From contig NZ_BSQG01000011.1 of assembly GCF_030268225.1 (NCBI RefSeq), positions 19,751 through 83,750 on the forward strand: 64,000 bases of DNA, in the 5' to 3' direction. Positions 1-33,032 of the stretch are shown here, in pieces. The notes under the pieces were generated by a model. The model did no database searches and was not told the origin of the DNA. It saw only the letters and a list, made by a program, of their open reading frames with translations. Both the position numbers and the translations under genes were made by a program. This DNA is from Nocardiopsis ansamitocini (GTDB lineage Bacteria > Actinomycetota > Actinomycetes > Streptosporangiales > Streptosporangiaceae). Each line of letters starts with the position of its first letter. The stretch's first letter is position 1.

Positions 1-147
1 CATCACGCCCTGGAAGAGCATGGAGACCGCTCGTCCGACGTCGTGGAGAAAGCGGAAGATATCGCGCTGGAGGACGACCTTGACGACCCTGAGGTCGTGG
101 GAGAACCCGTAGTCCGGTGCCTGGACGGCCGTGTCCGACGATGTCAC
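1..147 (-). CDS. hypothetical protein, N-terminal fragment (gene continues past the window start); GTG start overlaps the lanKC stop codon (GTGA)
   Basis: Minus-strand frame MTSSDTAVQAPDYGFSHDLRVVKVVLQRDIFRFLHDVGRAVSMLFQGVM... has very high GC3, unlike the overlapping plus-strand ORF 43..318. The GTG sits directly on the TGA of the upstream synthetase gene. No family recognised. Confidence 0.3.
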   Translation of the reverse strand, partial: MTSSDTAVQAPDYGFSHDLRVVKVVLQRDIFRFLHDVGRAVSMLFQGVM

Positions 148-2716
148 GCGTTGCCTCCCGCAGAACTCTCGCAGCCCCGCGCGGAGAAGAAGGGCAGGAA
201 CGGCGCCCCCTGTCCGCGCGCTGTGGCCAGGGCCAGGAGTATGCCGGCGCCCCCGGTCGCCAGGTCCATCGACAAACGGATACCACGGCCGCCGGGAAAA
301 GCGACGTGGCCGCGGTAGGGCAGGGTGTAGGCGGCCAACTCGCGGGCGCGCTCCTCGACCGCCTCGGGCGCACCGCCCATTCTGGCCAGGGTGACGAGCT
401 GCCCCGCTTTGCCGAAGAACAGATCGGCCCGCACGGTCAATCGGGCCAGCGCCGAACGGCACAGGCCCGGAACGGCTTCGCGCACCCGGGCGTCCTCCCG
501 GTGGGCCAACAGGTCGCCCGCCACCAGGGCGATCCCCATGCCGCCTGCTTCCAGGTACGGCAGGGCTCGGGCCCCCTTGTCCTTGACCAGCAGGGCATCG
601 TCATCCGACGTCACGCAGTGGTCGAGGTCCCGGTGGATCGCACGGACCGCGGCGTCGAGACAGGCGGGGTCGGCGGTCTGCTCATACATACGGACGAAGA
701 AGAGCGCGATTCCCGACCACCCGCGCATGAGGCCGACGGGCAGGGCTGCGGTCCGCCCGCTGCTCGCCCGCTCCGCGCCCTCCGGGGGACCGTTCTCCAC
801 GAAGCCGGCGAGCCGGTCGGCCAGCGCCACGGCCCGCTCCCGATACCGGGCGTCCCCGTGGCTGTCCGCGAAGTGCAACAGGGTGGCACCGACCCCGGAG
901 AGGCCCGAGAAGAGGGACATGCCCCCGCTGGGAGCATCCGCGTGCCGCTCCAGCAGGTCGGCCGCCTCTTCCCCGTATCCGAGGTGGTCGAGGGCGTAGG
1001 CGAGACCGGCCACACCGTCGTAGAACCCCGGGTTGGGCCGGACCAGTCGCCGCCCCGCGTCGATCAGCCACTGTTCGTGGTCGGGGTGGCGGCCGTGGCC
1101 CGCCGTGTCCAGTGCCCAGAGGACGCCGGCCGCGCCGTGCGCGAAACCGAAGCCACCCGAGACGAACTGCTGGATGTCCCCGGGGAAGAGGCGGTCCCGA
1201 CGCTCGGGGGTCGCCGAGGCGAGAACCCCGGCGGCGATCGCCGCCGGCGACGGGGCCGCGGCGGGCGGCCACTGCCCGGAGGCGGCGGCCGTGCCTTCCG
1301 GCACCATCTCGGCTTCGATCTCGTCCGCCCACTCCGGGGGGACGGGGAAGTTGCGGCGCACGATCGCGACGAACTCCGCGGCCTTGGCCGAGTCAAGGAC
1401 CGTGATCGGACTGAACAGCATGAACACCACCAGGCGCAGGGCGGCCATTCCGTAGTCGTCGATGGCGGTCCCGCGCCGCTGCGCGACGTTGAAGCCGGGT
1501 GCGCCGAGCCCCGGCTTCCATTGGGCGTCCGCCGCGTCGAACGACTGCTCGAAGTCGATGAGCGTCACCGTGTCGTCGGCATCGACGAGCACATTGTTGA
1601 CGTGCAGGTCACCGAAGACCAGGCCGCGCTTGTGCACCTCGCCGACGATCTCCTTGAGCCGGTCCATGATCCGCAGTGCCCTGCGGGTGTAGTCGGCGAC
1701 CTCCTCGTCGTCGGGGTCCGCCTTGTTGACCCACGGGTGGAAGGCCGCACACCAGGAGTAGAGCGGGAGCCCCTCCGCGTACTCCTGCACCAGGAAGCGG
1801 TGCCCGCCCAGGGGGAAACTGTCGAGAAGGCCCGGGACGCCCGAGATCCCGTCGAGTCGGGTGAGCGCCTTCTCCTCGCGTTCCTGCCGGGCGACGGCGT
1901 CGTCGCCGTTCCCGTCCAGACCGGCATGCGGACGGGCCTCCTTCAACACGACGGTCATGCCGTCGGTGAGGCGTTCCGCGAGGTAGACGCCTCCCCCGTT
2001 GGAAAAGTGCAGCGCCTTCAGGACACGGTAGGGCTGTTGGGCCTCGCCGTTCTGCCCGGTGCGCAGGTGCGGTTTCAGGAAGTCCGGCATCTCGACCCAG
2101 GCCGGTGGGGAGAAGGCGGGTTGGCGGAGGTCGGGGACGAGGGCGCCGTCCGGGCGCCGGATCGCGGGAACCAGTTCCCCGTCCGCACCGGTGCACCGCA
2201 TCTCGGCGAACCCGCCGTAGCGAACGTAGAGGGGCCCCTGGCCCCACCGGAGGTCGCTGAGGATGTAGGGGCCCGGTTCGCCGCCGATCTTCTCGGAGAG
2301 CCCGACGAGAATCGATTCCAGTTCCTTCTCGTCACGTGGATAGATCGTGACAAGTTTCCCGCTGGATGCCCGGGGCGCATATTTGGCGGAGAAAACGAAC
2401 TGGATTCTCCGGTTCATCAGATACTTGAACGGAATTCGCCGGGCAACGCAGTACTCTCGGACCGCTTCGCAGATCTCTTCGGCGTTGTCCAGGGTTGCGG
2501 AGACGTGAATCTTCCAGCCCTGTTCCGGAAGGTCTGCGCCCTCTGGAAAGAGGTAGCGCCAGACCCCCTGATCACCGCTTACCCACCCACTGGGACAGTC
2601 AAGGCCGGAGATCGAGAACTCTCCGTCGCCGAGAAAAGCCGGGCCGCCCGTCCACCGGCGCGGGTCTTCATAGAAAAGCGGGTCCGCTTGCGTGTAGACC
2701 TCTACCCGATCGAGCA
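144..2716 (-). CDS. lanKC: class III lanthipeptide synthetase (LanKC-type: N-terminal pSer/pThr lyase, central Ser/Thr kinase, C-terminal LanC-like cyclase lacking Zn ligands)
   Basis: Kinase motifs seen: HKRGLVFGDLHVNNVLVD and LIDFEQSF. The LanC-like C-terminus has GFAHGAAGVLWAL, but the WCxG position reads RGWSGIA (no Cys) and the CHG position reads LATGGAG (no Cys/His). Loss of zinc ligands is characteristic of class III rather than class IV. Start placed at GTG 2716 (GGAGA 6 nt upstream). Upstream of that the frame has low GC3 and is not coding, so the ORF-track start at 3023 is rejected. Confidence 0.85.
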
Positions 2717-2740
2717 CGAGTGTTCTCCATTCGACAAACC

Positions 2741-4165: not shown

Positions 4166-4999
4166 TCATCTGGCCCATTCCGGCCGTCGGGCCACGAGGA
4201 AGGTCTCCGACGGGGCGACCGGGCGAAGCAGGAGAAGGACGAAACCGAGCGTGCCGCGGAGGTTGTGCAGCCAGCTCTCCCGATAGTCCGATGTGTAGCG
4301 CAGGATCCGGGTCCGGGCGGCCGGGTCCTGCTCGTTGAAGCCCCAGTCGACGAGACCTCGGACGCACGCCCAGAGGAAGTTGTCCCACTCCTCGGCCGTG
4401 CTCACCTGGGCGTGGACGGGCATCCATCCCGCCGCGGTGACCTGTTCGAGCACACCGTTTAGGTCGGTGTGGGGGTCCTCGTCGAGGCTGAGCGCGGCGA
4501 GGGTCTGCTCGTTCGGGGGGCGGTGCCAGAAGCTCTCCCCCAACAGGACGTAGCCGTTGGGGAGCACCTGGGCGCGGAGGTGCTTCAAGGTGCCGTCCAG
4601 GCCGCCGAAGACCTCGGTGAGTCCCACACACATCACGAGGTCGCTGGGGTCCTGGGGCGTGAACGCGCGGGCGTTGACGGCGTGTCCGCTGAACCGGTCG
4701 GCCAGACCGCGGCGTTCGGCCTCCCGGGTGGCCCGGGCGATGTGCGCCGCGGAGAGGTCCACCCCGACGCACGAGGAGCCGGGGTGCAACTCCAGTGCGC
4801 GCAGCGACCAGGCGCCCAGACCGCAACCGATGTCGAGCACGGTCGCGTCGGACTTGAGCTCGACCATGCGCAGCAGTCGGTCGATGGTGGCCCCGGACAC
4901 GGGGCCCACCACCGGATGGTCGTCACCCAACCGGTTCCAGATGGCCTCATTGTCGATCCCGGTGTAGTCCATGGCCTGCGTCCTCTCGGGGGAACCCAC
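4166..4999 (-). CDS. class I SAM-dependent methyltransferase
   Basis: Motif I VLDIGCGLGAWS. GTG start directly abuts the TGA of the upstream gene (TGAGTG), with AGGAG 7 nt upstream. Alternative ATG at 4972. Confidence 0.8.
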   Translation of the reverse strand: MGSPERTQAMDYTGIDNEAIWNRLGDDHPVVGPVSGATIDRLLRMVELKSDATVLDIGCGLGAWSLRALELHPGSSCVGVDLSAAHIARATREAERRGLADRFSGHAVNARAFTPQDPSDLVMCVGLTEVFGGLDGTLKHLRAQVLPNGYVLLGESFWHRPPNEQTLAALSLDEDPHTDLNGVLEQVTAAGWMPVHAQVSTAEEWDNFLWACVRGLVDWGFNEQDPAARTRILRYTSDYRESWLHNLRGTLGFVLLLLRPVAPSETFLVARRPEWAR

Positions 5000-6511
5000 T
5001 CATCGCTCCTGGTCTTCGTCGGTGCCGTCGACCCATCGCCGCGCGGCTGCGGCGATCGCGTCGCGGGCCGCGCGCACCTCTGCCGCCAGGGGCCGGTCCC
5101 GGTCCAGCGGTGGGCTGATCTCGGCGAGCTCGGCCCAGAGGCTGTCGGGCTCGGCCTCCTGGCCGACCAGTGCGGCGTACTGGGCGAGGCCCACCCCGAG
5201 CGATCCGATGACGAGCCAGGCGTGCCCGAGCGCCTCGGCCACGGCGTTGGCACCGTTGAGCGCCATCGGGACATGGTCCTGGTTTCCGTTGTTGCAGGGC
5301 AGGGAGGTCAGAGAGGCCGGCACGACCAACTGCCTGATCCGGGAGACGAAAGACGTCGCGCTCACCTGCACACCGGCGAGTCCGCTGCCGGCTCCGGGCC
5401 GTGGGGTGAGCATCGGGGGCAGCCCACCGTTGGTCTCGGAAGCGCACAGCAGCGCGAGCTGCCGGTCGGCCAGGTAGGCCACCTGTTGGAGGCACAGGCC
5501 CAACTGGTCGGAGCACAGACCGACCGGCATGGCATGGAAGTTGCCGCCGTGCAGGACCTCTCCCTCGTAACAGACGGGGTTGTCCGTGGTCCCGCCGGCC
5601 TCACGGACAAGGATCTCCTCTTCCGCGTCCAACCGGTCCTGCACCGCTCCGAGGACCTGGGGGGCGCACCGGAGGCTGTAGGGCTCCTGAAGCGGACGCC
5701 CCGGGCCCCGCTCGGCCCCTTCGGGAAACTGCGACCTGATCCACCGGGCCACCCGTATCTGACCGTGTTGGCCTCTGACCTCGCCGATGCCGTGGTGGTA
5801 GGCCTGCGGATCCGCTCCCAGCAGGCGCGCCATCCTGCCGGTCAGGAGGGCGGACGCGCGCACCAGACGGGAGAGTTGCCGGTGGTTGTCGATGGTGAGT
5901 GCCAGCGAGACCCCGGTGCCGTTGACGAAGGCCAGCGCCTCGCGTGCAGACCACTCGACCGGCTCGGCGCCGACCGCTTCCAGTGCGCGCTCGGCGGGCA
6001 GGCAGACCCAGGCGCCCGCGTCGTCGCGCACCCACGCCTCCCCGCTTCCGCTGAAGGCGAGCGCGGCACTGGCCAGGGGCTGGAGGTCGCCGCTCGCGCT
6101 GACCGTCCCGTCCCGGGGGATCGCCGGGGTGAAACCGCTGTTCCACAACTTGGCGAGAAGCGACCAGAACTCCGGGGAGACCGCCGAGTGGCCCAGTCGC
6201 ATCCCGGACAGGCGCAACCACACCACCAGGCGACACACGTCGGGGGGCAGGGGACTGCCCTGGGCGGTCGCCAGATGGGCGATGAGCCCGCTGCCCTGTT
6301 CCTGGGCCGATTCGGCTGCGGGGAAGGCGACCAGCGGCCCGAATCCGTTCGTGACCCCGTAGACCGGCTTCCCGTCCGCGAGCGTCTTGGCCAGGGTGGT
6401 CATCCCGCCGCGCATCCGAGCGGCGTCCTCCTCTTCGCACTCCGCGAGTTCAGCGTCCCAATCCGCAGCTCGCGCGATCGCGGCGAGATTTCGCCGGGTA
6501 CCCGTCGTCAC
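5000..6511 (-). CDS. MIO-dependent aromatic amino acid ammonia-lyase/aminomutase (HAL/PAL/TAL family)
   Basis: MIO-forming tripeptide in TVSASGDLQPLAS. Also GFGPLV, NGTGVS, QEPYSLRCAPQ, HGGNFHAMPVG and NQDHVPMALNGAN. Start assigned to GTG at 6511, overlapping the stop of the upstream adenylating-enzyme gene (GTGA). Confidence 0.85.
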   Translation of the reverse strand: MTTGTRRNLAAIARAADWDAELAECEEEDAARMRGGMTTLAKTLADGKPVYGVTNGFGPLVAFPAAESAQEQGSGLIAHLATAQGSPLPPDVCRLVVWLRLSGMRLGHSAVSPEFWSLLAKLWNSGFTPAIPRDGTVSASGDLQPLASAALAFSGSGEAWVRDDAGAWVCLPAERALEAVGAEPVEWSAREALAFVNGTGVSLALTIDNHRQLSRLVRASALLTGRMARLLGADPQAYHHGIGEVRGQHGQIRVARWIRSQFPEGAERGPGRPLQEPYSLRCAPQVLGAVQDRLDAEEEILVREAGGTTDNPVCYEGEVLHGGNFHAMPVGLCSDQLGLCLQQVAYLADRQLALLCASETNGGLPPMLTPRPGAGSGLAGVQVSATSFVSRIRQLVVPASLTSLPCNNGNQDHVPMALNGANAVAEALGHAWLVIGSLGVGLAQYAALVGQEAEPDSLWAELAEISPPLDRDRPLAAEVRAARDAIAAAARRWVDGTDEDQER

Positions 6512-7626
6512 GTTTGCACTCCCGTGTTCGAGATCGGTTGCATCTGCACCCGCCGGAGTTTGCCCGTCTCGGAGCGGTCGATCCGGTCGACGGGAACCAC
6601 CTTGCGGGGACGGCATTCCAGTTCCGCCAGGGCGGCGGCCAGGTCGAGATCGGCTCCGGTACGGCCGCCGCCGGGAACGATCAGCAGGTCGAAGTGCTCG
6701 CCGATGAGGGGGTCGGTCACCGGCGTGCAGGCCAGGTCCGCACAGGACACCGAGGACCGCAGCCGTTCCTCGATGAGTTCGAGGTCGATCCTGCGTCCAT
6801 TGACGTTGACGAGCCGGCCGCGCCGACCGGCGAAGCCGAATCTGCGTGCGTCGATGATCCGCACCCGGTCGTCCATCTCCCAGGAATCCGGTGCGCGGCC
6901 GTCCGGAAAGCGAGCCAGCCGTGGACTGCGTACAGTTAGCGGAACTTCACCCTCGGTTGTACTCTCGGGGCGGGGCAGCGCGAACTCGACGTCCGGGCAC
7001 AGCTCCCAGGGCGGGTTCCCGCCGCTCCACCTGCGGGTGGCGATGGCACCGGTCTCCGTGGAGCCGAACAGTTCCAGCAGCGAGGCGGTTTCGGGGAACT
7101 TCGCAAGCAGGTCGGCGGCGGTGGCGGGGAGCACGGACGTGCTGTGGACAACGCTGACCCGTTCGAGAGAACGAACCCAGGAGGCTCGCTGAAGCAGAAT
7201 CCGAAAGGTCCAGGGGATGGCCATGACGGCCCAGCGCCGGTGCGGTTGCGGCGGCATGGCGGCGAACTGCGGGCGGTACCAAACAGGAAGCCCGAGCTTC
7301 GCGGGGACGAGGAGGCTGACGAGTGCCCCGTAGAGATGCCGGGGCGGAGCGAACGACAGGACCGCCTCGGGTCGGTCGGGTCCGATCATGGCCGCCAGGA
7401 GCGACGCTTCCGCCCACAGTTGCTCGCGACTGCGCCGCCAGCGTCGGCGTTCTCCGGTGGTCCCCGACGTGAAGAAGTCCAGTACCGGCGGGAACCGTTT
7501 CATGACGAAGTCCTCGACCGGTTCGTCCAGTTCGTCCCAGCGCACCGTCCAGGGGCGTTCGGTGAACTCGGGCGCCTGGAAGTCGCCGGCCAACAAGTCC
7601 GCCGGCGAGAGTCGGTCGTACGTCAC
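6508..7626 (-). CDS. short adenylate-forming enzyme (AMP-binding/ANL superfamily, PaaK-like size)
   Basis: FFTSGTTGERRRW (A3 core), GSTETG (A5-like), ETGKL (A10 Lys). Only about 372 aa. Start ambiguous: GTG 7626 (GGAGG 8 nt upstream, overlaps the uORF stop) or GTG 7662. Confidence 0.75.
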   Translation of the reverse strand: MTYDRLSPADLLAGDFQAPEFTERPWTVRWDELDEPVEDFVMKRFPPVLDFFTSGTTGERRRWRRSREQLWAEASLLAAMIGPDRPEAVLSFAPPRHLYGALVSLLVPAKLGLPVWYRPQFAAMPPQPHRRWAVMAIPWTFRILLQRASWVRSLERVSVVHSTSVLPATAADLLAKFPETASLLELFGSTETGAIATRRWSGGNPPWELCPDVEFALPRPESTTEGEVPLTVRSPRLARFPDGRAPDSWEMDDRVRIIDARRFGFAGRRGRLVNVNGRRIDLELIEERLRSSVSCADLACTPVTDPLIGEHFDLLIVPGGGRTGADLDLAAALAELECRPRKVVPVDRIDRSETGKLRRVQMQPISNTGVQT

Positions 7627-7703
7627 GCGACCGACCTCCGGTGCGCACGGCCCTTCGCGCACAATCGCGGAACCACCGTCTCCCCTCGGTCGAGGCAGGT
7701 CAT
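7623..7703 (-). CDS. 26-aa upstream ORF MTCLDRGETVVPRLCAKGRAHRRSVA, translationally coupled to the adenylating-enzyme gene
   Basis: ATG preceded by AAGGAGAG at 5 nt spacing. Its TGA overlaps GTG 7626 of the downstream gene (GTGA). No homology recognised. Confidence 0.3.
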   Translation of the reverse strand: MTCLDRGETVVPRLCAKGRAHRRSVA

Positions 7704-7877: not shown

Positions 7878-8870
7878 TCAAGCCGAGGTGGAACCCACCC
7901 GCTTCTTCAGCGGTTCCCACCAGCTCCGGTTGTCCACGTACCAGCGCACGGTGTCGGCCAACCCCTGCCGGAAGGGCACCTGGTCCCGGTAGCCCAACTC
8001 GGTGCGGATCCTCGTGTGGTCGAGGGAGTAGCGGTGGTCGTGTCCCTTGCGGTCCTCGACGAAGCGCACCATCGACCAGTCGTGCCCCAGCTCCTTTAGG
8101 ACCAGTGCCGTCACCTGCTCGTTGGTCATCTCCACGGCGCTGCCGATGTTGTAGATCCGCCCCGGGTCACCGTGTTGCGCGACCAGGGCGATACCGGCGC
8201 AGTGGTCGTCGACGTGCACCCACTCGCGCACGTTGCTGCCGTCCCCGTAAAGGGGGACCGTCTCGCCGTCCAGGAGGTTCGTGACGAAGAGCGGGATCAG
8301 CTTCTCGGGGAACTGGTAGGGCCCGTAGTTGTTGCAGCACCGGGTGATGCACACCGCGAGACCGTGCGTCTTGTAGAAGGCACGGGCGATGAGATCGGCC
8401 GCGCCCTTCGTTGCCGCGTAGGGGGAGTTGGGCTCCAGCAGGCCCTGCTCGTCCCAGGACTCCGACGTGATCGTCCCGTAGACCTCGTCGGTCGACACGA
8501 GGACGAATTTGTCGACCTTCGCCCTCAACGCGCTGTCGAGAAGGGCGAACGTCCCGTTCACATTGCTGCGCAGGAACTCCGAACCGTCAGCGATGGAGCG
8601 GTCGACATGCGTCTCGGCCGCGAAGTGGACGACGAGCGAGACACCGGCCATCACCTCGTCGAGCAGAGCGGTGTCACAGATGTCCCCGGAGACGAATCTG
8701 AGCCGGGGGTCCTCCATTACGCGTTCCAGGCTCCCCAATGTTCCGGCGTAGGTCAGCTTGTCCAGGACCACGACCTCGGAGGCGTCCACCCCCGGATACG
8801 CGCCCGCGAGAACGCGTCGGACGAAATTCGATCCGACAAACCCAGCGCCGCCAGTGACCAGCATTCTCAT
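7878..8870 (-). CDS. rmlB: dTDP-glucose 4,6-dehydratase
   Basis: MRMLVTGGAGFVGSNFV Rossmann N-terminus, YAATKGAAD (YxxxK), LVSTDEVYG. Typical RmlB length of 330 aa. Confidence 0.9.
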   Translation of the reverse strand: MRMLVTGGAGFVGSNFVRRVLAGAYPGVDASEVVVLDKLTYAGTLGSLERVMEDPRLRFVSGDICDTALLDEVMAGVSLVVHFAAETHVDRSIADGSEFLRSNVNGTFALLDSALRAKVDKFVLVSTDEVYGTITSESWDEQGLLEPNSPYAATKGAADLIARAFYKTHGLAVCITRCCNNYGPYQFPEKLIPLFVTNLLDGETVPLYGDGSNVREWVHVDDHCAGIALVAQHGDPGRIYNIGSAVEMTNEQVTALVLKELGHDWSMVRFVEDRKGHDHRYSLDHTRIRTELGYRDQVPFRQGLADTVRWYVDNRSWWEPLKKRVGSTSA

Positions 8871-8882
8871 GTGCTCTCACCT

Positions 8883-9764
8883 CTACCGTGTGCCATTCGA
8901 GCGCCGAGCCTTTTCCATCACGTATCGACCGTACGGCGAGTCCTTCATCTCTTCTCCCAACCTGTGACACGCCTCCGCGTCGATGAATCCCATACGCAAC
9001 GCGATCTCTTCGAGGCAGGCGATGCGCTCGCCTTGTCCCTTCAGCACCGAGTGGACATAGCAGGCGGACTCGAAGAGGGACTCCTCCGTTCCCGCGTCGA
9101 ACCACGCGACACTGTCTTCCAGCGTCACGAAACGCGCCCTTTCCTGGGCAAGGTAAGCCCGGTTGACATCGGTGATCTCAAGTTCGCCGCGCGCCGACGG
9201 ACGAACCTCCTTGGCCACCTCGACCGCATCGGCGCCGTAGAAATAGAGCCCCGTCACCGCGTAGTCGGAATCGGGGCGTTCCGGTTTTTCCTCGATCGAG
9301 ATCAACCTCCCGGACCGGTCGAACCCCCCGACCCCGTAGCGGCACGGATCAAAGACCTTGTGTCCGAAGAGGACGCATCCGTCCACCGTGCGTGCGGCCT
9401 CCTGGACGGCTTCCTCGAATCCGGGGCCGTGGAACAGGTTGTCGCCCAGTACCAGCGCACTGGGTCGGCCGTCGATATGACGTTCGCCGATGAGCAGAGC
9501 CTCCGCGATTCCTCGCGGCTCTTTTTGCTCCCGGTAACCGATATCGAGACCGAGCCGCTTTCCGTCTCCGAACACCCGTTGCAGAGGGGAAATCGATTCG
9601 GGGGCGGAGATCACCAGAATTTCACGGATTCCAGCGAGCATGAGAACCGCGATCGGATAGTAGATCATCGGCTTGTCGTAGATGGGAAACAACTGCTTAG
9701 ACGCCGCACTCGTACTCGGCCGGAGACGGCTCCCGTTTCCTCCCGCCAGAACAATACCCTTCAC
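8883..9764 (-). CDS. rmlA: glucose-1-phosphate thymidylyltransferase
   Basis: VKGIVLAGGNGSRLRP at the GTG start, with AGGAG 5 nt upstream. Also EKPERPDSDYAVTGLYFY. The longer N-terminal extension in the ORF track is rejected. Confidence 0.9.
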   Translation of the reverse strand: MKGIVLAGGNGSRLRPSTSAASKQLFPIYDKPMIYYPIAVLMLAGIREILVISAPESISPLQRVFGDGKRLGLDIGYREQKEPRGIAEALLIGERHIDGRPSALVLGDNLFHGPGFEEAVQEAARTVDGCVLFGHKVFDPCRYGVGGFDRSGRLISIEEKPERPDSDYAVTGLYFYGADAVEVAKEVRPSARGELEITDVNRAYLAQERARFVTLEDSVAWFDAGTEESLFESACYVHSVLKGQGERIACLEEIALRMGFIDAEACHRLGEEMKDSPYGRYVMEKARRSNGTR

Positions 9765-10037: not shown

Positions 10038-11318
10038 GTGCGCATCCTCATAGCGACATACGCAGACAGGTCCTACTTCTTCAGCATGGTGCCACTGGCA
10101 TGGGCGCTGCGGGCCGCGGGTCACGAGGTGCGAGTGGCCAGCCAGCCGGAGCTGACCGACGCGGCCGCAAGCACCGGCCTGACCGTACTCCCGGTCGGCG
10201 AGGACCACATGTCCAGGAAACTGCTGCACTCGCCGGCGACCCAGCAGTACCAGGACTACCAGGAATCCGCCTTCAACCTGGCCGAGGACCGGCCGGAGGA
10301 GCTGACGTGGGACCGCCTCAAGAAGGCGCAACTCCGGTTCGTCGTCTGGTGGTGGAAGGTGATCAACGAACCGATGCTGAAAGAACTCGTGGCCTTCTGT
10401 CGGGAGTGGCGGCCGGATCTGGTGATCTGGGAGCCGATGACCTTCGCCGGGGCAGTGGCCGCCGAGGCGTGCGGTGCCGCCCACGCCCGCTTCCTGTGGA
10501 GCTACGACCTGGTCGGCCAGAATCGCCGGAACTACCTGGAGGCGATGGCGGAGCAGCCCGCGCACGAGCATGCCGACCCGCTGCGCGAATGGCTCACCTC
10601 CCGCGCCGAGCGCTACGACGTCCCCTTCTCCGAGGACCTGATCAGAGGGCAGTTCTCGATCGGCCCCATTCCCGCCTCCCTCAGGGCCGGGGAGCCCGTG
10701 GTCGAGGAGAAGGTGGGCGTGCGCCATGTCCCCTACGAGGGGGCAACCGTCCTGCCCGGATGGCTGCGCACCCCACTCGAGCAGCGACGCGTGCTCGTGG
10801 ACTGGCGGGCGCTGCGGGCCGGTGACCCCGAACGCAGCGAGGCGGTCCTGCGGGAGGTGCTGGCCGGCGCGATCGGCCTGGACGCGGAAGTGCTGCTGGT
10901 CCTTCCGCCGGCGGACCGGGAGACACTCCCCCCCTTCCCCGACCGTGTGCGCGTCATCGAAGAGGGCATCTCCCACATCGTGCTTCCCACGTGCTCCGCG
11001 GTGGTCCACCCCGGAGGGTTCGACACGTACTGCACGTCCTTGCTGCACGGGGTGCCGCAGGTGATCGTCCCCGAGCCGGACCTGTTCGACGCGACGCCAC
11101 TGGCGAGTGCCCTGGCCGACGCCTCCGCGGGCAGCGTGCTCCCCTGGGCGGGGTGCACCGCCGGGGGCGTCCGGGAGCGGCTGGACGAGGTGCTCGGTTC
11201 CGCGGAGATAGCCGCGGGCGTCCGCCGACTCCAGCAGGAGGTACTGGCCATGCCCACACCGGACCTTCTCGTGGCGGAACTGGAACGCCTCACCGTCAAG
11301 CACCGGAAAGAGGACTGA
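10038..11318 (+). CDS. GT1-family glycosyltransferase (antibiotic/macrolide-type)
   Basis: VRILIATYADRSYFFSMVPLAWALRAAGHEVRVAS N-terminal domain and HPGGFDTYCTSLLHGVPQVIVP C-terminal nucleotide-sugar domain. GTG at 10038 with AAAGGA RBS. The remaining upstream part of ORF 8172..11318 is antisense shadow of rmlA/rmlB. Confidence 0.85.
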   Translation: MRILIATYADRSYFFSMVPLAWALRAAGHEVRVASQPELTDAAASTGLTVLPVGEDHMSRKLLHSPATQQYQDYQESAFNLAEDRPEELTWDRLKKAQLRFVVWWWKVINEPMLKELVAFCREWRPDLVIWEPMTFAGAVAAEACGAAHARFLWSYDLVGQNRRNYLEAMAEQPAHEHADPLREWLTSRAERYDVPFSEDLIRGQFSIGPIPASLRAGEPVVEEKVGVRHVPYEGATVLPGWLRTPLEQRRVLVDWRALRAGDPERSEAVLREVLAGAIGLDAEVLLVLPPADRETLPPFPDRVRVIEEGISHIVLPTCSAVVHPGGFDTYCTSLLHGVPQVIVPEPDLFDATPLASALADASAGSVLPWAGCTAGGVRERLDEVLGSAEIAAGVRRLQQEVLAMPTPDLLVAELERLTVKHRKED

Positions 11319-11351: not shown

Positions 11352-12599
11352 TCAGCCGGTGAGGTCGTGGAGGAGGGGGACGAGGTCGGCGGGGGCGGGC
11401 ATGTCCTGCATTTCCCGGCGCAGGCGGTCGGCCGACCGGGCGAACCCCGGCTCCCCGAGCAGCCGTCGTACCCGCTCCCCCACCGTCTCCCCCGTGGCGT
11501 CGGCGGAGTCCAGCGCGAACCCCGCGCCTGCCCGCTCCACCTCCCGGGCCAACAGCGGAGCGTCGAACAACCGGTCCCTTGGGGCGATGACCTGGGGAAC
11601 CCCGTGGGTGAGCGAGGTGAACACGGTCCCCGGCCCGCCCTGGTCGACCATGGCGTGGCAGGTGGGGGTGAGTGCGTGGAGGGGGGCGTAGTCGACGAGG
11701 CGGGTGTTGGGGGGGATGGGTCCGAGGGTGTGGTGGTGGGCGGTGGGGATGGTGGCGATGATTTCGGCGTCGAGGTCGGCGAGTCCGTTGAGGATGTCGG
11801 TGACGGAGACGGTGTAGCCGCCGAAGCGTTCGGAGGCGCTGGTGCCCAGGGTGAGGCAGATGCGGGGTCGGTGGGGTGGGGTGCGCAGCCAGTGGGGGAC
11901 GACGGCGCGCCCGTTGTAGGGGACGTAGCGCATCGGCAGGTACCTGGCGTCGGACAACGGATCGATCCGCAGCGAGGGAGGAACCTGGTCGATGGTGGCC
12001 TGGCCGTGGACGAGTTCTTCGTCATAATCGAGGCCGTAGCGTGCGGCGAGGGCGGTGAGCCAGGCGGCTAGGGGGTCTTCTTGCTGGTCGGGGGGCTGCT
12101 CGCCCATCCGCCGCAGGTACAACCCCCGCATCCGGGAGAACAGGTCGAGGCTCCAGAGGAAGCGGACGTGGGCGGCCCCGCAGGCCCTGGCCGCGATCGC
12201 CCCCGCGAACGTCGTGGGCTCCCAGATCACCAGGTCCGGACGCCACTGGCGGCAGAACGCCACCAGGTCGCCCAGCATCGGCTCGTTGACCATGCGCCAC
12301 CACCAGGTCACCATCTGGCGATAGCCATCCCTCATGTAATCCCAGGTGAGAACCTCGTCGCGGTCTTCACCCATGTCGAAGACCGCGGTCCGGCCGCCGG
12401 CCGCGCGTTTGACCATCCTCGGAAAAGAGTGGTTGCGGCCCACGGGCACGAAGGGCAGTCCGGCACCGGTGACCACACCTTCGAGTTCGGGCTGACTGGC
12501 CACCCGCACCTCGTGCCCGGCCGCCCGCAACGCCCACGCCACGGGAACCATCCCCAGAAAATGCGTCCGCTCGGCCTGGGCCGCGATCACCACGCGCAC
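11352..12599 (-). CDS. GT1-family glycosyltransferase, paralog of 10038..11318, convergent
   Basis: VRVVIAAQAERTHFLGMVPVAWALRAAGHEVRVAS and HAMVDQGGPGTVFTSLTHGVPQVIAP. GTG 12599 with GAGGTGG RBS. Confidence 0.85.
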   Translation of the reverse strand: MRVVIAAQAERTHFLGMVPVAWALRAAGHEVRVASQPELEGVVTGAGLPFVPVGRNHSFPRMVKRAAGGRTAVFDMGEDRDEVLTWDYMRDGYRQMVTWWWRMVNEPMLGDLVAFCRQWRPDLVIWEPTTFAGAIAARACGAAHVRFLWSLDLFSRMRGLYLRRMGEQPPDQQEDPLAAWLTALAARYGLDYDEELVHGQATIDQVPPSLRIDPLSDARYLPMRYVPYNGRAVVPHWLRTPPHRPRICLTLGTSASERFGGYTVSVTDILNGLADLDAEIIATIPTAHHHTLGPIPPNTRLVDYAPLHALTPTCHAMVDQGGPGTVFTSLTHGVPQVIAPRDRLFDAPLLAREVERAGAGFALDSADATGETVGERVRRLLGEPGFARSADRLRREMQDMPAPADLVPLLHDLTG

Positions 12600-13734: not shown

Positions 13735-14301
13735 TCAGGACGCGGGCGGACCCGCGGCGAGCGTCCGGACGAACTCAACACCTGCCGTCTCCCACTGCTC
13801 CCGGTAGACGGCGAAGACGTTCGCCGTCCTCAACTGGTCGCCGTCCTTCACGTACTCGGGGAACACGACCTCTTTGACGGCGTCGATCGGGGTGCCGTCC
13901 AGCGCGGCGATCGAGTCGTCGAGCGTCCAGAAGTAGATCTTCCTGATGTTCCACATCGAGAACGCGTAGTTGGCGGTCAGCGCGGTCGCGGCGGTCGCGG
14001 CTCCCGGCCCGCCGCGAGACGGGTCGAGCGCCACGCTGCACTTCACGTAACCGCTGTGCGGGCTGAGTTCGTGCAACGAGGTGTAGCCGACGATCCTCCC
14101 CGACTCCGGGTGCACGATCTCGAACTGGGCGCAGACCTGCTGGTGCGGACCGTTGGGCCAGAGCGACATGGACGTGAAGGCGTCGCGGCTGGGGAGCTTC
14201 TCCAACCCCAGACCGGTCAGTTCCTCGAAAACGGCGCTACCGGTACGGGTCTGAGCGGCGGTGAGCCGGATCCCGAGCGCTTCGGTGTGCGGAATTATCA
14301 C
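13735..14301 (-). CDS. GNAT-family N-acetyltransferase (RimL/acetyltransf_3-like)
   Basis: SRGGPGAATAATALTANYAF matches the acetyl-CoA-binding motif A (R-G-x-G-x-A). GTG start at 14301. The ORF-track 5-prime extension to 14505 overlaps the precursor gene and hairpin and is rejected. Confidence 0.5.
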   Translation of the reverse strand: MIIPHTEALGIRLTAAQTRTGSAVFEELTGLGLEKLPSRDAFTSMSLWPNGPHQQVCAQFEIVHPESGRIVGYTSLHELSPHSGYVKCSVALDPSRGGPGAATAATALTANYAFSMWNIRKIYFWTLDDSIAALDGTPIDAVKEVVFPEYVKDGDQLRTANVFAVYREQWETAGVEFVRTLAAGPPAS

Positions 14302-14387: not shown

Positions 14388-14489
14388 TCAACCGCAGTTG
14401 AAGTAACTGGCCCCACTGTTGGCCAGAAAAACCTGGTCGGACTCGATTTCCAACTCCTGAAGGGAGAGGATGTCGGAAAGCGTCATCAT
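14388..14489 (-). CDS. lanA1: class III lanthipeptide precursor peptide candidate (33 aa): MMTLSDILSLQELEIESDQVFLANSGASYFNCG
   Basis: Not in the ORF track (below its size cutoff). AAAGAGGTGG Shine-Dalgarno immediately upstream. The leader carries an ILELQ-like motif (DILSLQELEIE). The core carries exactly one Ser-x-x-Ser-x-x-x-Cys motif (SGASYFNC), the labionin/lanthionine-forming pattern of class III substrates. Confidence 0.6.
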   Translation of the reverse strand: MMTLSDILSLQELEIESDQVFLANSGASYFNCG

Positions 14490-15286
14490 GCCACCTCTTT
14501 CTCAATCACTAGGACGCCGCGAAAATCGCCCGCACCCCAGGGTCCGGGCCAATAATCGAAGGCGAAAGGATAAGTTAGGAGCACACCACGCTATCGGAAG
14601 CAGACCCCTTGAGAAACCGAAGAAAGCAGAACTGCCCTTTCAGCTGCCATCAAAAGTAGGCCAATGCGTCCGAACGCGCAAGAATAGGCACCCGAAACGA
14701 AATTGGCCCTCCTCCCGACGGGTCCCGCCGGCGGGACACCCGGTCCGCCCCCGCAGCCGGTGGACCACACGTTGCCCCTGATGTCCCCACGCCTCCCCAC
14801 CAGCGGCTCCGACGCCTGGAGGCCCTTCGTCCCCGCCCGCGCACTACCGCCGGTGACCTGCCCCGAACGGCTCACCCCCGGCACCATCCGACCTTCCCGC
14901 ACACCAGTGGGCCGGCGCCGGTGTCCCCCTATTCTTGGCCACGGCACAGTCGCGTCCGGCACGATCGACGATCGTCGTGCGCACCGCCCATCCGTCCGTC
15001 TCACGTCCCCGGCATGTCCTGCGGAGGCACGCCGGAAAAGAAAGACCGGGCACCGGGGCGGGAGACACCGATCCGCCCCGAGCGCCGGGACGGCGCGGGG
15101 CCGGGAGAGCGACGGGAGACCGCTTCGCGCCGTGGCTCTCGCGGCCAGGAAGCGGGACGACGGCCCCGATGACGCCTGGCCCCGGCGGGCACCTGGTGCC
15201 GGCCTTTGACACTCTTCGGCAGGGGAGACAGCGCACAGACGGTCCTCTTCCGGGCTGACGGACCGATTCGGCAGGGAAGGATATGG

Positions 15287-16609
15287 ATGGTGATGAGCGA
15301 TCAGGCCGCGCGGATCCTCGACGAGGTCCGCGCCTACCACCGGGAGACCCAGCAGGAACAGGAGTTCATTCCGGGTGTCACCGAGATCTGGTCATCCGGC
15401 GCGGTTCTCGACGAAGAGGACCGGGTGTCTCTGGTCGAGGCCGCCCTGGAGATGCGGATCGCAGCGGGCAGGAACTCGCGCAAATTCGAGTCCATCTTCG
15501 CCCGCAGGCTGAACCGGCGCAAAGCCCACCTGACCAACTCCGGTTCGTCGGCGAACCTGCTCTCCCTGTCGGCGCTGACGTCGCACCTGTTGGAAGAACG
15601 CCGGCTCCGGCCCGGCGACGAAGTGATCACGGTCGCCGCGGGGTTCCCCACCACCGTCAACCCGATCCTGCAGAACGGGCTGATCCCGGTATTCGTGGAC
15701 GTCGAGCTGCGGACCTACAACACCACCGCCGATCGGGTGGCTCAAGCGATCGGTCCGCGCACCCGGGCGATCATGATCGCGCACGCGTTGGGCAACCCGT
15801 TCGAGGCCACCGAAATCGCCCAGTTGGCCGAGGACAACGACCTGTTCCTGATCGAGGACAACTGCGACGCCGTGGGCTCCACCTACGACGGGCGACTGAC
15901 GGGTTCCTTCGGCGACCTGTCGACGGTGAGCTTCTATCCGGCCCATCACCTCACCATGGGCGAAGGCGGCTGCGTGCTCACCTCGAACCTGGTTCTGGCC
16001 CGGATCGTGGAGTCGATGCGCGACTGGGGGCGGGACTGCTGGTGCGAACCCGGGGAGAGCAACACCTGCCACAAGCGGTTCGCCTACCAGCTGGGCACGC
16101 TGCCGGCCGGGTACGACCACAAGTACACCTTCTCCCACGTGGGCTACAACCTGAAGGGAACCGATCTTCAGGCGGCTCTCGGTCTGAGCCAACTCACCAA
16201 ACTCGACGGGTTCTCAGCGGCCCGGCGTCGCAACTGGCGCCGGCTGCGCGAGGGTCTCGACGGCCTGCCGTGGCTGCTGCTTCCCGAGGCGACACCGCGC
16301 GGCGATCCGAGCTGGTTCGGTTTCGTTATGACTGTTTCGCCAGCGGCACCGTTCAGCAGAGCGGAACTGGTCGAGTTCCTGGAGAACCGAAAGATCGGTA
16401 CCCGCCTGCTGTTTGCCGGGAATCTGACACGGCACCCCGCGTACATCGACCGCCCCCACCGCGTGGCCGACGACCTGACCAACAGTGACCTGATCACGGA
16501 GCAGACGTTCTGGACCGGTGTCTATCCGGGACTCACCGACGAGATGCTCGACTACGTCATCTCCTCCATCACCGAGTTCGTGAAGACACGCGGGGGCTCT
16601 GGCCATTGA
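15287..16609 (+). CDS. NDP-4-keto-6-deoxyhexose 3-dehydrase (E1/ColD/SpnQ-type, PMP- and [2Fe-2S]-dependent member of the DegT/DnrJ/EryC1 aminotransferase fold)
   Basis: [14 protein letters not shown] has His where aminotransferases have the PLP lysine. Exact C-X57-C-X1-C-X7-C spacing (EDNC ... [13 protein letters not shown]), the E1 iron-sulfur signature. ATG 15287 with GGAAGGA RBS. Confidence 0.85.
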
Positions 16610-16814: not shown

Positions 16815-16934
16815 ATGGCACTCTCGGACGTCCTGCTTCTCCAGGGAATGGAGATCGAGACGGCGGGCAACGATGTCCCCCTTCTCGGAAGTGGTTTGAG
16901 CATTACCGGCTGCACCGTACTGCAGGCCGCATAG
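16815..16934 (+). CDS. lanA2: class III lanthipeptide precursor peptide candidate (39 aa): MALSDVLLLQGMEIETAGNDVPLLGSGLSITGCTVLQAA
   Basis: Not in the ORF track. GAGGAGGTG RBS 10 nt upstream. Leader LSDVLLLQGMEIET parallels the other precursor (LSDILSLQELEIES). Core has a single S-x-x-S-x-x-x-C motif (SGLSITGC). TAG stop. Confidence 0.65.
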   Translation: MALSDVLLLQGMEIETAGNDVPLLGSGLSITGCTVLQAA

Positions 16935-33025: not shown

Positions 33026-33032
33026 CGCGCCG

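What the first reader, a model, noticed from the sequence alone, without database searches (positions are those of the whole stretch)
15287..16609. E1-type [2Fe-2S] 3-dehydrase with textbook C-X57-C-X1-C-X7-C spacing but no E3 reductase partner in the window
The active-site Lys of the aminotransferase fold is replaced by His ([14 protein letters not shown]), and the four Cys have exactly the E1 spacing. E1/ColD/SpnQ-type enzymes need a reductase (E3-like) or a general ferredoxin/flavodoxin reductase.

None is encoded among the 60+ genes here. Neither is a 2,3-dehydratase, a 4-ketoreductase or an epimerase. The sugar pathway in the window is therefore incomplete (rmlA, rmlB and the 3-dehydrase only). 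That implies either a very short route to a 3,6-dideoxy-4-keto sugar or dependence on genes elsewhere in the genome.
Basis: partly seen in the sequence, partly recalled or inferred. Interest (0 to 1): 0.55.

Follow-up and report, generated by a model that had tools for sequence, protein, structure and literature searches.

The report
Deoxysugar 3-dehydrase inside a lanthipeptide cluster
The gene is a well-conserved, ordinary actinomycete sugar C-3 deoxygenase of the E1/SpnQ type; having no dedicated reductase gene is normal for that type, the "missing" pathway genes lie just outside the window, and the unusual point is that it sits between two lanthipeptide precursor genes in a sugar-rich class III lanthipeptide cluster.

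Summary
Window 15287-16609(+) encodes a 440-aa E1/RfbH-type PMP-dependent 3-dehydrase. It has His220 in place of the aminotransferase Lys, and Cys193/251/253/261 give C-X57-C-X1-C-X7-C. It is 54% identical to Yersinia E1 and 82% to LanQ.

- **No E3 gene.** This is the documented norm for the actinomycete SpnQ type, which uses general ferredoxin or flavodoxin reductase pairs.
- **Incomplete pathway.** This is a window-edge effect. The source is Nocardiopsis ansamitocini. Its NDP-hexose 2,3-dehydratase (GLU50023) and a third glycosyltransferase (GLU50026) are on the same 143-kb contig. They lie 9 and 6 genes left of the LanKC gene (GLU50032) that ends at window base 144. E1 is GLU50043.

E1 is flanked by two unannotated class III lanthipeptide precursor genes (14388-14486(-) and 16815-16934(+)). 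The cluster also holds LanKC, rmlA, rmlB, two GT1 glycosyltransferases, a GNAT, an aromatic ammonia-lyase and an acyl-AMP ligase. Sister Nocardiopsis clusters place a 2,3-dehydratase, a Gfo-type reductase, E1 and an aminotransferase (a SpnO/N/Q/R-like set) around the same precursor family.

The enzyme is ordinary. The cluster may encode a new deoxysugar-decorated lanthipeptide.

The parts
15287..16609 (+). E1/SpnQ-type NDP-4-keto-hexose 3-dehydrase gene (440 aa, GLU50043.1; RefSeq start at 15293, 438 aa)
   Evidence: ORF; PDB 3bcx E=1.2e-148; NF011936 RfbH 669.7 bits against a cut-off of 423; 100% identical to the N. ansamitocini protein
15944..15946 (+). Codon of His220, which replaces the aminotransferase Schiff-base Lys
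   Evidence: Motif SFYPAHH at residues 215-221; aligns to H220 of E1 and to K220 of the 3bb8 mutant; invariant in 121/121
15863..16069 (+). Stretch holding the four [2Fe-2S] ligand cysteines: C193 (15863-15865), C251 (16037-16039), C253 (16043-16045), C261 (16067-16069)
   Evidence: Positions and spacing 57/1/7; each Cys invariant in 121/121
14388..14486 (-). Unannotated class III lanthipeptide precursor gene: MTLSDILSLQELEIESDQVFLANSGASYFNCG (an extra Met codon lies at 14487-14489). It heads the operon precursor-GNAT-ABC-GT2
   Evidence: Six-frame motif scans; ribosome-binding site GAGAAAGAGGTGG upstream; LxLQ leader and SGxSxxxC core invariant across 6 homologues
16815..16934 (+). Second unannotated precursor gene, 205 nt downstream of the E1 stop: MALSDVLLLQGMEIETAGNDVPLLGSGLSITGCTVLQAA
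   Evidence: (site GAGGAGGTG 8 nt upstream). GenBank numbers E1=50043 and alpha/beta hydrolase=50044 show it is not annotated
13735..14301 (-). GNAT-family protein (GLU50042.1). Paralogues accompany precursor genes in all sister loci; candidate peptide N-acyltransferase
   Evidence: No Pfam hit at 1e-5; weak NCBIfam GNAT hit; NCBI name 'GNAT family protein'; paralogues in L004, L005, L009, L020, L084
12661..13659 (-). DrrA-type ABC transporter ATP-binding protein (GLU50041.1); no permease gene beside it
   Evidence: Pfam ABC_tran + DrrA1-3_C
11352..12599 (-). GT2, activator-dependent-family GT1 glycosyltransferase (GLU50040.1, 415 aa)
   Evidence: Pfam EryCIII-like_N/C; TIGR04516 507 bits against a cut-off of 440
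10038..11318 (+). GT1, GT1-family glycosyltransferase (GLU50039.1)
   Evidence: Pfam EryCIII-like_N/C; TIGR04516 428.7 bits, just under the 440 cut-off
8883..9761 (-). rmlA, glucose-1-phosphate thymidylyltransferase (start approximate)
   Evidence: Pfam NTP_transferase; TIGR01207 366.4 bits against a cut-off of 360.65, with the match starting at residue 77 of the 8886-9989 translation
7878..8876 (-). rmlB, dTDP-glucose 4,6-dehydratase
   Evidence: Pfam GDP_Man_Dehyd/Epimerase; TIGR01181 409.3 bits against a cut-off of 365.1
6508..7662 (-). Acyl-AMP ligase (weak 4-coumarate-CoA-ligase-like)
   Evidence: Pfam AMP-binding; TIGR02372 at 60.7 bits, far below its cut-off; conserved next to the lyase in L004, L009, L028
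5000..6511 (-). Aromatic amino acid ammonia-lyase or aminomutase (GLU50035.1)
   Evidence: Pfam Lyase_aromatic 363.8 bits; HAL/TAL/aminomutase models all below cut-off
4166..4999 (-). Class I SAM methyltransferase (GLU50034.1)
   Evidence: Pfam Methyltransf_23/12/25; a similar gene sits in the N. ganjiahuensis cluster at L088 12561-13385
144..2717 (-). Class III lanthionine synthetase LanKC (GLU50032.1); the cluster continues to its left, outside the window
   Evidence: Pfam RamC_N + LANC_like; NF038151 961 bits against a cut-off of 575

Best explanation
The gene encodes a functional SpnQ/LanQ-type TDP-4-keto-hexose 3-dehydrase.

Proposed mechanism:
- PMP forms a Schiff base with the 4-keto sugar.
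- His220 abstracts the C4' proton and the 3-OH is expelled.
- The resulting 3,4-glucoseen intermediate is reduced by two single electrons passed through the enzyme's own [2Fe-2S] cluster (Cys193/251/253/261).
- Those electrons come from housekeeping ferredoxin/ferredoxin-NADP reductase or flavodoxin/flavodoxin reductase, not from a dedicated E3.

Proposed pathway:
- RmlA and RmlB (in the window) make TDP-4-keto-6-deoxy-D-glucose.
- A 2,3-dehydratase (GLU50023, just left of the window) and a 3-ketoreductase (not located) would make TDP-4-keto-2,6-dideoxyglucose.
- This enzyme would convert that to a TDP-4-keto-2,3,6-trideoxyhexose.
- After reduction or transamination, the GT1 glycosyltransferases of the cluster would attach the sugar.

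The cluster is a class III lanthipeptide cluster, so the likely acceptor is the single-ring lanthipeptide or an aromatic acyl group on it.

Shown: enzyme family, catalytic residues, gene neighbourhood, and the existence and relative position of the off-window 2,3-dehydratase.
Inferred: electron donor, exact substrate, acceptor.
For: - **Family and catalytic residues:**
- **Close relatives:** 82% identity to the landomycin LanQ homologue Q9ZGC6 (P0052) and 81% to SaqQ (P0069), among 8000 hits at E<=1e-50.
- **TDP-sugar context:** rmlA and rmlB pass their equivalog cut-offs.
- **Selection:** Nei-Gojobori dN/dS is 0.16-0.21 against three sister genes, compared with 0.13-0.16 among the sisters.
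- **Electron donor:** SpnQ uses general reductase pairs instead of E3 (PMC8987622). No E3-like gene appears in the window or in the sister loci.
- **Off-window genes:** 2,3-dehydratase P0255 and glycosyltransferase P0138 are from the same contig and absent from the window. GenBank numbering is collinear with gene order: LanKC 50032, MT 50034, lyase 50035, GT1 50039, GT2 50040, ABC 50041, GNAT 50042, E1 50043, hydrolase 50044, TetR 50045.
- **Sister clusters:** N. tropica (L087) and N. ganjiahuensis (L088) hold a 2,3-dehydratase (PF03559), a Gfo/Idh/MocA reductase next to E1 (the L088 locus ends just before where E1 would lie), a 370-aa DegT aminotransferase, several GTs and a 34-aa precursor of the same family.
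- **Lanthipeptide context:** two precursor genes flank E1. The LanKC clade closest to the window's (53-59% identity) is linked to GT or sugar genes in Nocardiopsis, Glycomyces, Nonomuraea and Sinosporangium. More distant LanKC loci carry two-ring SapB-like precursors directly downstream and no GTs.
Against: - No 3-ketoreductase or 4-ketoreductase of N. ansamitocini was located. The Gfo/Idh/MocA gene that sits next to E1 in all sister loci is absent here, with no remnant.
- I could not read the contig outside the window. The content of GLU50024-50031, other than the glycosyltransferase GLU50026, is unknown.
- The 2,3-dehydratase is only 58% identical to the N. tropica one, so it could serve a different sugar.
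- Substrate specificity cannot be read from the sequence. The family is about 80% identical across very different clusters.
- Nothing here shows that the cluster is expressed or that the sugar ends up on the peptide.
Confidence: 0.72

Rival explanations
1. Short 3,6-dideoxy route. The enzyme acts directly on the RmlB product TDP-4-keto-6-deoxy-D-glucose and gives TDP-4-keto-3,6-dideoxyglucose. That product is transferred as such, or after reduction by an unlinked reductase.
For: Within the window, only rmlA, rmlB and this gene are sugar-tailoring genes. The Gfo-type reductase that accompanies E1 in the sister loci is missing here. Yersinia E1 does exactly this chemistry on the CDP-linked sugar. 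From memory, and unverified here, SpnQ was reported to tolerate the 2-hydroxylated TDP substrate.
Against: A 2,3-dehydratase is encoded 20 genes upstream in what is most likely the same cluster. The closest relatives sit in clusters with a 2,3-dehydratase plus a Gfo-type reductase or in known 2,3,6-trideoxysugar clusters such as the LanQ and SaqQ ones. No 4-ketoreductase is present in the window to finish a 3,6-dideoxyhexose.
Confidence: 0.15
2. Stranded gene in a reduced cluster. N. ansamitocini has a cut-down, rearranged version of the large sister cluster. On this view the 3-dehydrase no longer has a working pathway and persists only because the loss was recent.
For: The window cluster has 2 GTs, whereas at least 7 GT genes are seen across the N. 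ganjiahuensis loci L004 and L088. It lacks the UDP-glucose dehydrogenase, C-methyltransferase, 370-aa aminotransferase and Gfo reductase of the sisters. No ACP gene is found in the window. The ABC ATPase has no adjacent permease. dN/dS is slightly higher than among the sisters: 0.16-0.21 against 0.13-0.16.
Against: The ORF is intact and all 5 catalytic residues are kept. dN/dS is far below 1. Some of the 'missing' genes (the 2,3-dehydratase and a third GT) are simply outside the window, so the apparent reduction is at least partly an edge artefact.
Confidence: 0.08
3. It works in vivo as a 4-aminotransferase rather than a dehydrase, as SpnQ does in vitro when no reductase is supplied.
For: SpnQ shows transamination with PLP and glutamate in the absence of a reductase (PMC8987622). 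No 370-aa DegT aminotransferase like that of the sisters is present in the window.
Against: His, not Lys, is at position 220, and all four cluster cysteines are retained under purifying selection. General ferredoxin reductase systems are normally present in actinomycetes (general knowledge).
Confidence: 0.05

Closest known systems
SpnQ (Saccharopolyspora spinosa forosamine pathway) and its uncharacterised homologues LanQ, UrdQ and SaqQ: TDP-4-keto-2,6-dideoxy-D-glucose 3-dehydrases
   Same: Actinomycete origin and TDP-sugar context (rmlA/rmlB). His in place of Lys. The same four-Cys [2Fe-2S] motif. No E3 gene in the cluster. 82% identity to the LanQ homologue and 81% to SaqQ. Sister clusters carry a set of 2,3-dehydratase, Gfo-type reductase, E1 and aminotransferase that resembles SpnO/N/Q/R (pathway as I recall it and as outlined in PMC8987622).
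   Different: It sits in a class III lanthipeptide (RiPP) cluster between two precursor genes, not in a polyketide cluster. The Gfo-type reductase is not adjacent in this genome. I had no SpnQ sequence, so identity to SpnQ itself was not measured.
E1 (AscC/DdhC/RfbH), CDP-6-deoxy-L-threo-D-glycero-4-hexulose 3-dehydrase of Yersinia/Salmonella, PDB 3bcx
   Same: 54% identity over 422 residues with identical residue numbering of H220 and C193/C251/C253/C261. Passes the NCBIfam RfbH equivalog.
   Different: E1 works with the dedicated [2Fe-2S]/FAD reductase E3 and on a CDP sugar within an O-antigen locus. Here there is no E3 gene, the nucleotide context is TDP, and the locus is a secondary-metabolite cluster.
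ColD, GDP-4-keto-6-deoxy-D-mannose 3-dehydratase (PDB 2gms, 3gr9)
   Same: Same fold and the same His-for-Lys replacement; E=2.4e-48.
   Different: ColD has no Fe-S cluster and regenerates PMP with glutamate. The window protein keeps all four cluster cysteines and is far closer to E1.
NAI-112 (class III) and cacaoidin (class V), which a 2025 paper counts as the two glycosylated lanthipeptides known
   Same: Lanthipeptide clusters that encode glycosyltransferases and attach 6-deoxyhexoses.
   Different: For NAI-112 a single glycosyltransferase and a 6-deoxyhexose are described; cacaoidin carries a two-sugar unit on a Tyr. The papers read here mention no C-2/C-3 deoxygenation genes for either. 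This cluster family carries E1 and a 2,3-dehydratase. Sister clusters add a Gfo-type reductase, an aminotransferase, a C-methyltransferase and at least 7 GT genes. The precursors are very short and have a single ring.
Lipolanthines and goadvionins (N-acylated RiPPs; a GNAT transfers an ACP-bound acyl group in goadvionins)
   Same: A GNAT sits next to each precursor gene. There is also an acyl-AMP ligase, and sister loci have a 94-aa protein that I read as a carrier protein from its DSFS motif.
   Different: There is no PKS or FAS. An aromatic amino acid ammonia-lyase suggests an aromatic (cinnamoyl or coumaroyl type) acyl group instead. This is inference only.

Membership tests
E1/SpnQ-type NDP-4-keto-hexose 3-dehydrase (PMP, [2Fe-2S]) | DegT/DnrJ/EryC1 (fold-type I aminotransferase) homology | tested here: met
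   PF01041 288.4 bits; PDB 3bcx E=1.2e-148 over the full length
E1/SpnQ-type NDP-4-keto-hexose 3-dehydrase (PMP, [2Fe-2S]) | Catalytic His replaces the Schiff-base Lys | tested here: met
   H220 aligns with E1 H220 and with K220 of the H220K structure 3bb8; invariant in 121/121
E1/SpnQ-type NDP-4-keto-hexose 3-dehydrase (PMP, [2Fe-2S]) | Four-Cys motif C-X57-C-X1-C-X7-C | tested here: met
   C193, C251, C253, C261; each invariant in 121/121
E1/SpnQ-type NDP-4-keto-hexose 3-dehydrase (PMP, [2Fe-2S]) | Curated family model above its trusted cut-off | tested here: met
   NF011936 RfbH equivalog 669.7 bits against 423
E1/SpnQ-type NDP-4-keto-hexose 3-dehydrase (PMP, [2Fe-2S]) | Bound [2Fe-2S] cluster and PMP-dependent C-3 deoxygenation | not testable with these tools
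   Needs UV-vis/EPR and an enzyme assay
Enterobacterial E1/E3 two-component system | Dedicated E3 reductase (Fer2 + FAD/NAD-binding) encoded with E1 | tested here: not met
   No Fer2/FAD_binding_6/NAD_binding_1 gene among about 51 window genes, nor in sister loci L001, L084, L086, L087, L088
Enterobacterial E1/E3 two-component system | CDP-glucose pathway context (CDP-glucose pyrophosphorylase and CDP-glucose 4,6-dehydratase) | tested here: not met
   The neighbours are the dTDP-specific equivalogs rmlA (TIGR01207) and rmlB (TIGR01181). The CDP_4_6_dhtase model scores only 81 bits against a cut-off of 278
SpnQ/LanQ-type TDP-2,6-dideoxy-4-ketohexose 3-dehydrase | High identity to cluster-assigned actinomycete members | tested here: met
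   82% to the LanQ homologue Q9ZGC6 and 81% to SaqQ. SpnQ itself was not compared
SpnQ/LanQ-type TDP-2,6-dideoxy-4-ketohexose 3-dehydrase | Co-occurring NDP-hexose 2,3-dehydratase that supplies the 2-deoxy substrate | tested here: met
   Absent from the window but present on the same contig as GLU50023.1, 20 gene numbers before E1. Adjacent in the sister clusters
SpnQ/LanQ-type TDP-2,6-dideoxy-4-ketohexose 3-dehydrase | Co-occurring 3-ketoreductase (Gfo/Idh/MocA type) | tested here: inconclusive
   Adjacent to E1 in all sister loci. No gene or remnant in the window. The off-window part could not be read
[quoted passage not shown] | LanKC synthetase plus precursors with an LxLQ leader and an SxxSxxxC core | tested here: met
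   NF038151 961 bits; two precursors in the window and homologues in sister loci

The most novel reading that the evidence does not exclude
The 3-dehydrase may be part of an uncharacterised family of class III lanthipeptide clusters. The family occurs in Nocardiopsis and Glycomyces, with related loci in Nonomuraea and Sinosporangium. Its very short single-ring peptides (core ...NSGxSxxxC) would be decorated with highly deoxygenated TDP-sugars, 2,3,6-trideoxy or 4-amino-tetradeoxy, made through a SpnO/N/Q/R-like route. They may also be N-acylated with an aromatic acid by the GNAT that accompanies each precursor gene. That would be the first lanthipeptide, and as far as I know the first RiPP, carrying polyketide-style di- or trideoxysugars.
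Probability: 0.4. Interest if true: 0.65.

Novelty: new member of a known kind. Interest (0 to 1): 0.3.

Why it matters
As stated, the finding does not matter much. An E1/SpnQ-type dehydrase without an E3 gene is textbook for actinomycetes, and the pathway gap comes from where the window was cut.

What could matter is the setting. According to a 2025 paper, only two glycosylated lanthipeptides were known, NAI-112 and cacaoidin. The sugars described for NAI-112 are 6-deoxyhexoses, and I recall the same for cacaoidin.

A conserved lanthipeptide cluster family with C-2/C-3 deoxygenation genes and many GT1 transferases would join RiPP and deoxysugar chemistry. It would also supply peptide-acting glycosyltransferases for engineering.

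The two precursor genes are absent from the GenBank annotation, so automated mining may miss the link between the sugar genes and the peptide.

Tried and rejected
- **Extending the window leftwards.** The look-up of encoding contigs has no record for the N. ansamitocini proteins P0001 and P0255, or for the 440-aa form. The single genome-contig scan, run with LanKC, showed N. ansamitocini is not in that collection; the best hit was 59%. I used GenBank accession order as a substitute.
- **A decayed Gfo/Idh/MocA reductase upstream of E1.** I searched the 985-nt gap with tblastn using the sister proteins and with blastn using the sister loci. Nothing was found.
- **An ACP gene in the window.** None was found.
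- **The class I LanB/LanC cassette next to E1 in N. dassonvillei and G. fuscus.** I considered whether it belongs with E1 and rejected that. N. tropica has the same E1 locus without the cassette.
- **LanKC as an unrelated SapB/ram morphogen operon.** Rejected. SapB-like loci have two-ring precursors directly downstream of LanKC and no GTs. The window's clade has single-ring precursors interleaved with GT and sugar genes.
- **Precursors in the Nonomuraea loci.** My regular expressions found none in L007, L008 or L010. This is unresolved.
- **Primary papers.** The SpnQ and E1 primary papers (PMC2515268, PMC2782820) and a further review (PMC2796923) are not held. The SpnQ statements therefore rest on the review PMC8987622.
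- **Promoter scan.** It found no sigma-70-like sites around the gene. It found only a weak terminator-like hairpin at 16707-16722 between E1 and the downstream precursor.
Full report
**1. The observation**

The ORF at 15206-16609(+), read from the ATG at 15287, gives a 440-aa protein. [14 protein letters not shown] is at residues 215-228. Cysteines are at 193, 229, 251, 253 and 261, so the spacing C-X57-C-X1-C-X7-C is exact.

The best solved relative is Yersinia E1 (3bcx, E=1.2e-148, aligned 10-432 against 10-433). The H220K mutant 3bb8 identifies the first His of 'AHH' as the Lys replacement. Identity is 54.3% over 422 positions.

The protein passes the NCBIfam RfbH equivalog with 669.7 bits against a cut-off of 423. 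C193, H220, C251, C253 and C261 are invariant in the window protein and its 120 best homologues.

**2. Source and family**

The protein is 100% identical to 'RfbH' of Nocardiopsis ansamitocini. The RefSeq form is WP_285761588.1 (438 aa) and the GenBank form is GLU50043.1 (440 aa). It lies on a contig of 143,237 bp.

The family is very large and very conserved in actinomycetes. The search scored 8000 proteins at E<=1e-50. The top 120 are 79-83% identical and include the landomycin LanQ homologue Q9ZGC6 (82%) and SaqQ (81%). As an enzyme it is one more member of the SpnQ/LanQ group.

**3. The missing E3**

I called about 51 genes with a codon-usage model and scanned them with Pfam. No gene has the Fer2/FAD_binding_6/NAD_binding_1 architecture of E3. 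The sister loci in N. dassonvillei, N. tropica, G. fuscus and N. ganjiahuensis have none either.

This is expected. For SpnQ, the electron transfer uses ferredoxin/ferredoxin reductase or flavodoxin/flavodoxin reductase pairs instead of the E1-specific E3 (review PMC8987622). The absence of E3 separates the gene from the enterobacterial E1/E3 system and fits the SpnQ type. It is not an anomaly.

One limit applies. Very small ferredoxin ORFs that I did not call could have been missed.

**4. The incomplete pathway**

Inside the window the sugar genes are rmlA (about 8883-9761, -), rmlB (7878-8876, -) and this gene, plus two GT1 glycosyltransferases at 10038-11318(+) and 11352-12599(-). No 2,3-dehydratase, epimerase or further ketoreductase is present.

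From about 17.1 kb to 64 kb the genes appear unrelated to the cluster. They include an alpha/beta hydrolase, TetR, catalase, PLD, LutABC, an SPFH/AAA pair, a sugar ABC importer, a kinase, a P-type ATPase and others. The cluster therefore ends on the right just after the gene.

On the left the window ends 143 nt beyond the stop codon of a class III lanthionine synthetase, LanKC (144-2717, -; NF038151, 961 bits).

A search with the N. tropica 2,3-dehydratase returned an N. ansamitocini NDP-hexose 2,3-dehydratase (P0255, 465 aa, 58% identity) from a contig of the same length, 143,237 bp. A glycosyltransferase search returned a third N. ansamitocini GT (P0138) from that contig. Neither maps in the window.

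Their GenBank identifiers are GLU50023.1 and GLU50026.1. I checked that GenBank numbering follows gene order using nine window proteins:
- LanKC 50032
- methyltransferase 50034
- lyase 50035
- GT1 50039
- GT2 50040
- ABC 50041
- GNAT 50042
- E1 50043
- hydrolase 50044
- TetR 50045

The 2,3-dehydratase therefore lies 9 genes, and the extra GT 6 genes, beyond LanKC, just outside the left edge. The incompleteness is a window-edge effect.

The 'very short route' is unlikely. A 3-ketoreductase and a 4-ketoreductase or aminotransferase remain unlocated, because the off-window sequence could not be fetched.

**5.

Two short ORFs with good ribosome-binding sites flank the gene:
- 14388-14486(-): MTLSDILSLQELEIESDQVFLANSGASYFNCG
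- 16815-16934(+): MALSDVLLLQGMEIETAGNDVPLLGSGLSITGCTVLQAA

Both carry the LxLQ leader motif typical of class III precursors (PMC7268733) and one SxxSxxxC motif. Homologues in the sister loci align with invariant L-x-L-Q and S-G-x-S-x-x-x-C. Neither ORF is in the GenBank annotation, because E1 (50043) is followed directly by 50044 and preceded directly by 50042.

As a control, the same scan over 80 LanKC loci finds the classical two-ring SapB/AmfS-like precursors immediately downstream of LanKC in most of them. The single-ring 'SDVLxLQ...NSGxSxxxC' family occurs only in the loci closest to the window's LanKC.

Those closest loci (53-59% LanKC identity) are the ones carrying sugar-related genes:
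- N. ganjiahuensis, N. tropica, N. codii, G. fuscus, three Nonomuraea species: GT genes
- The two loci that reach far enough (N. ganjiahuensis, N. tropica): rmlA/rmlB, the ammonia-lyase and the AMP-ligase
- Nonomuraea and Sinosporangium siamense: UDP-glucose dehydrogenase homologues

In N. ganjiahuensis the LanKC locus (contig positions 377-400 kb) is 6 kb from a second block (406-427 kb). That block holds, in order: GT, UDP-glucose dehydrogenase, an SDR, a sugar C-methyltransferase, GT, a 205-aa protein with no family hit, a 370-aa DegT aminotransferase, a 2,3-dehydratase, GT, a 94-aa putative carrier protein, a GNAT homologue, a methyltransferase, a 34-aa precursor, two ABC-2 permeases, an ABC ATPase, GT, GT and a Gfo/Idh/MocA reductase. 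By comparison with N. tropica, E1 would follow.

E1 is thus a constituent of a conserved, sugar-rich class III lanthipeptide cluster. N. ansamitocini has a rearranged version of it.

**6. Mechanism**

- **Shown:** the family, the catalytic His, the cluster ligands, the TDP context, purifying selection (dN/dS 0.16-0.21 against sisters), and the presence of a 2,3-dehydratase close by.
- **Established for the family (PMC8987622):** PMP Schiff base; His-mediated proton abstraction with loss of the 3-OH; two one-electron reductions through the [2Fe-2S] cluster; general reductase pairs as donors in SpnQ.
- **Inferred:** the substrate is TDP-4-keto-2,6-dideoxyglucose. The product is further reduced or transaminated. 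The sister clusters have a SpnO/N/Q/R-like set, which suggests a 4-amino-2,3,4,6-tetradeoxy or a 2,3,6-trideoxy sugar. The GT1 enzymes then transfer it to the lanthipeptide.

The GNAT next to each precursor, the AMP-ligase and the aromatic ammonia-lyase suggest N-acylation with an aromatic acid. This is by analogy with the GNAT/ACP acylation of goadvionins (PMC8784127). It is a lead, not a result.

**7. Rivals**

- **Direct action on TDP-4-keto-6-deoxyglucose (3,6-dideoxy route).** Supported by the absence of the adjacent Gfo reductase here. Weakened by the nearby 2,3-dehydratase and by the sister clusters.
- **A stranded gene in a reduced cluster.** Weakened by the intact residues and the low dN/dS.
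- **In vivo aminotransferase activity.** Weakened by the conserved His and Cys residues.

**8. Comparison and novelty**

The enzyme is a new member of a known kind (SpnQ/LanQ type). It fails the defining features of the enterobacterial E1/E3 system, having no E3 and no CDP context, although it works like E1.

The cluster context appears undescribed in the literature I could search. Reviews list only NAI-112 among class III lanthipeptides as glycosylated. A 2025 paper counts two glycosylated lanthipeptides in all, NAI-112 and cacaoidin. Searches combining lanthipeptide, LanKC, deoxysugar and Nocardiopsis found no description of this family. The library lacks most subscription journals, so prior description cannot be excluded.

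**9. Verdict**

As stated, the finding is ordinary and partly an edge artefact, so interest is low.

The surrounding cluster deserves its own follow-up, and I put the overall interest score at 0.3. The most novel reading not excluded is a deoxysugar-decorated, possibly acylated, class III lanthipeptide family. I give that a probability of about 0.4 and an interest of about 0.65 if true.

Noticed in passing
window 14388-14486(-) and 16815-16934(+): Two class III lanthipeptide precursor genes (LxLQ leader, single SxxSxxxC core) flank the dehydrase gene. Both are missing from the GenBank annotation, where the numbering jumps directly 50042-50043-50044.
   Followed up: yes
window 13735-14301(-); paralogues at L009 8334-8861, 9385-9909, 15371-15910, 16923-17276: A divergent GNAT-family protein with no Pfam hit at 1e-5 accompanies precursor genes. 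Up to four paralogues occur per locus in sister species. Together with a 94-aa ACP-like protein (DSFS motif), an AMP-ligase and an aromatic ammonia-lyase, it suggests aromatic N-acylation of the peptide.
   Followed up: partly
L001 11775-20947 and L086 3673-12831, compared with L084 11323-12127: In N. dassonvillei and G. fuscus a complete class I lanthipeptide cassette is inserted right after the E1 gene. It holds a 59-aa precursor, a luciferase-like oxidoreductase, LanB, LanC and an ABC exporter. N. tropica has the same locus without the cassette, so it looks like a separate insertion.
   Followed up: partly
window 12661-13659(-): A DrrA-type ABC ATPase has no ABC-2 permease gene next to it. 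The sister loci have two permease genes beside their ATPase. The partners may lie off-window or may be lost.
   Followed up: no
window 58984-59709(-): There is a full-length match to the AviRa rRNA methyltransferase family (PF11599, 246 bits; avilamycin-type resistance). It is far from any visible antibiotic cluster.
   Followed up: no
window 30977-38012(+): A 682-aa SPFH/Band-7 protein is followed by a 1659-aa DUF3686/DUF7902/AAA ATPase ('ATPase involved in DNA repair'). It is a large conserved pair of unknown role.
   Followed up: no
window 10038-11318(+) and 11352-12599(-): Both glycosyltransferases match the 'activator-dependent' GT family TIGR04516 (GT2 above the cut-off, GT1 just below). 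No P450-like activator gene of the DesVIII/EryCII type is adjacent. The only P450 in the window is 26 kb away, at 38073-39284.
   Followed up: no
L007, L008, L010 (Nonomuraea LanKC loci): These loci carry GT, ACP, GNAT and UDP-glucose dehydrogenase homologues next to LanKC, but my motif scans found no precursor gene there. Their precursors may have a different leader or core.
   Followed up: partly
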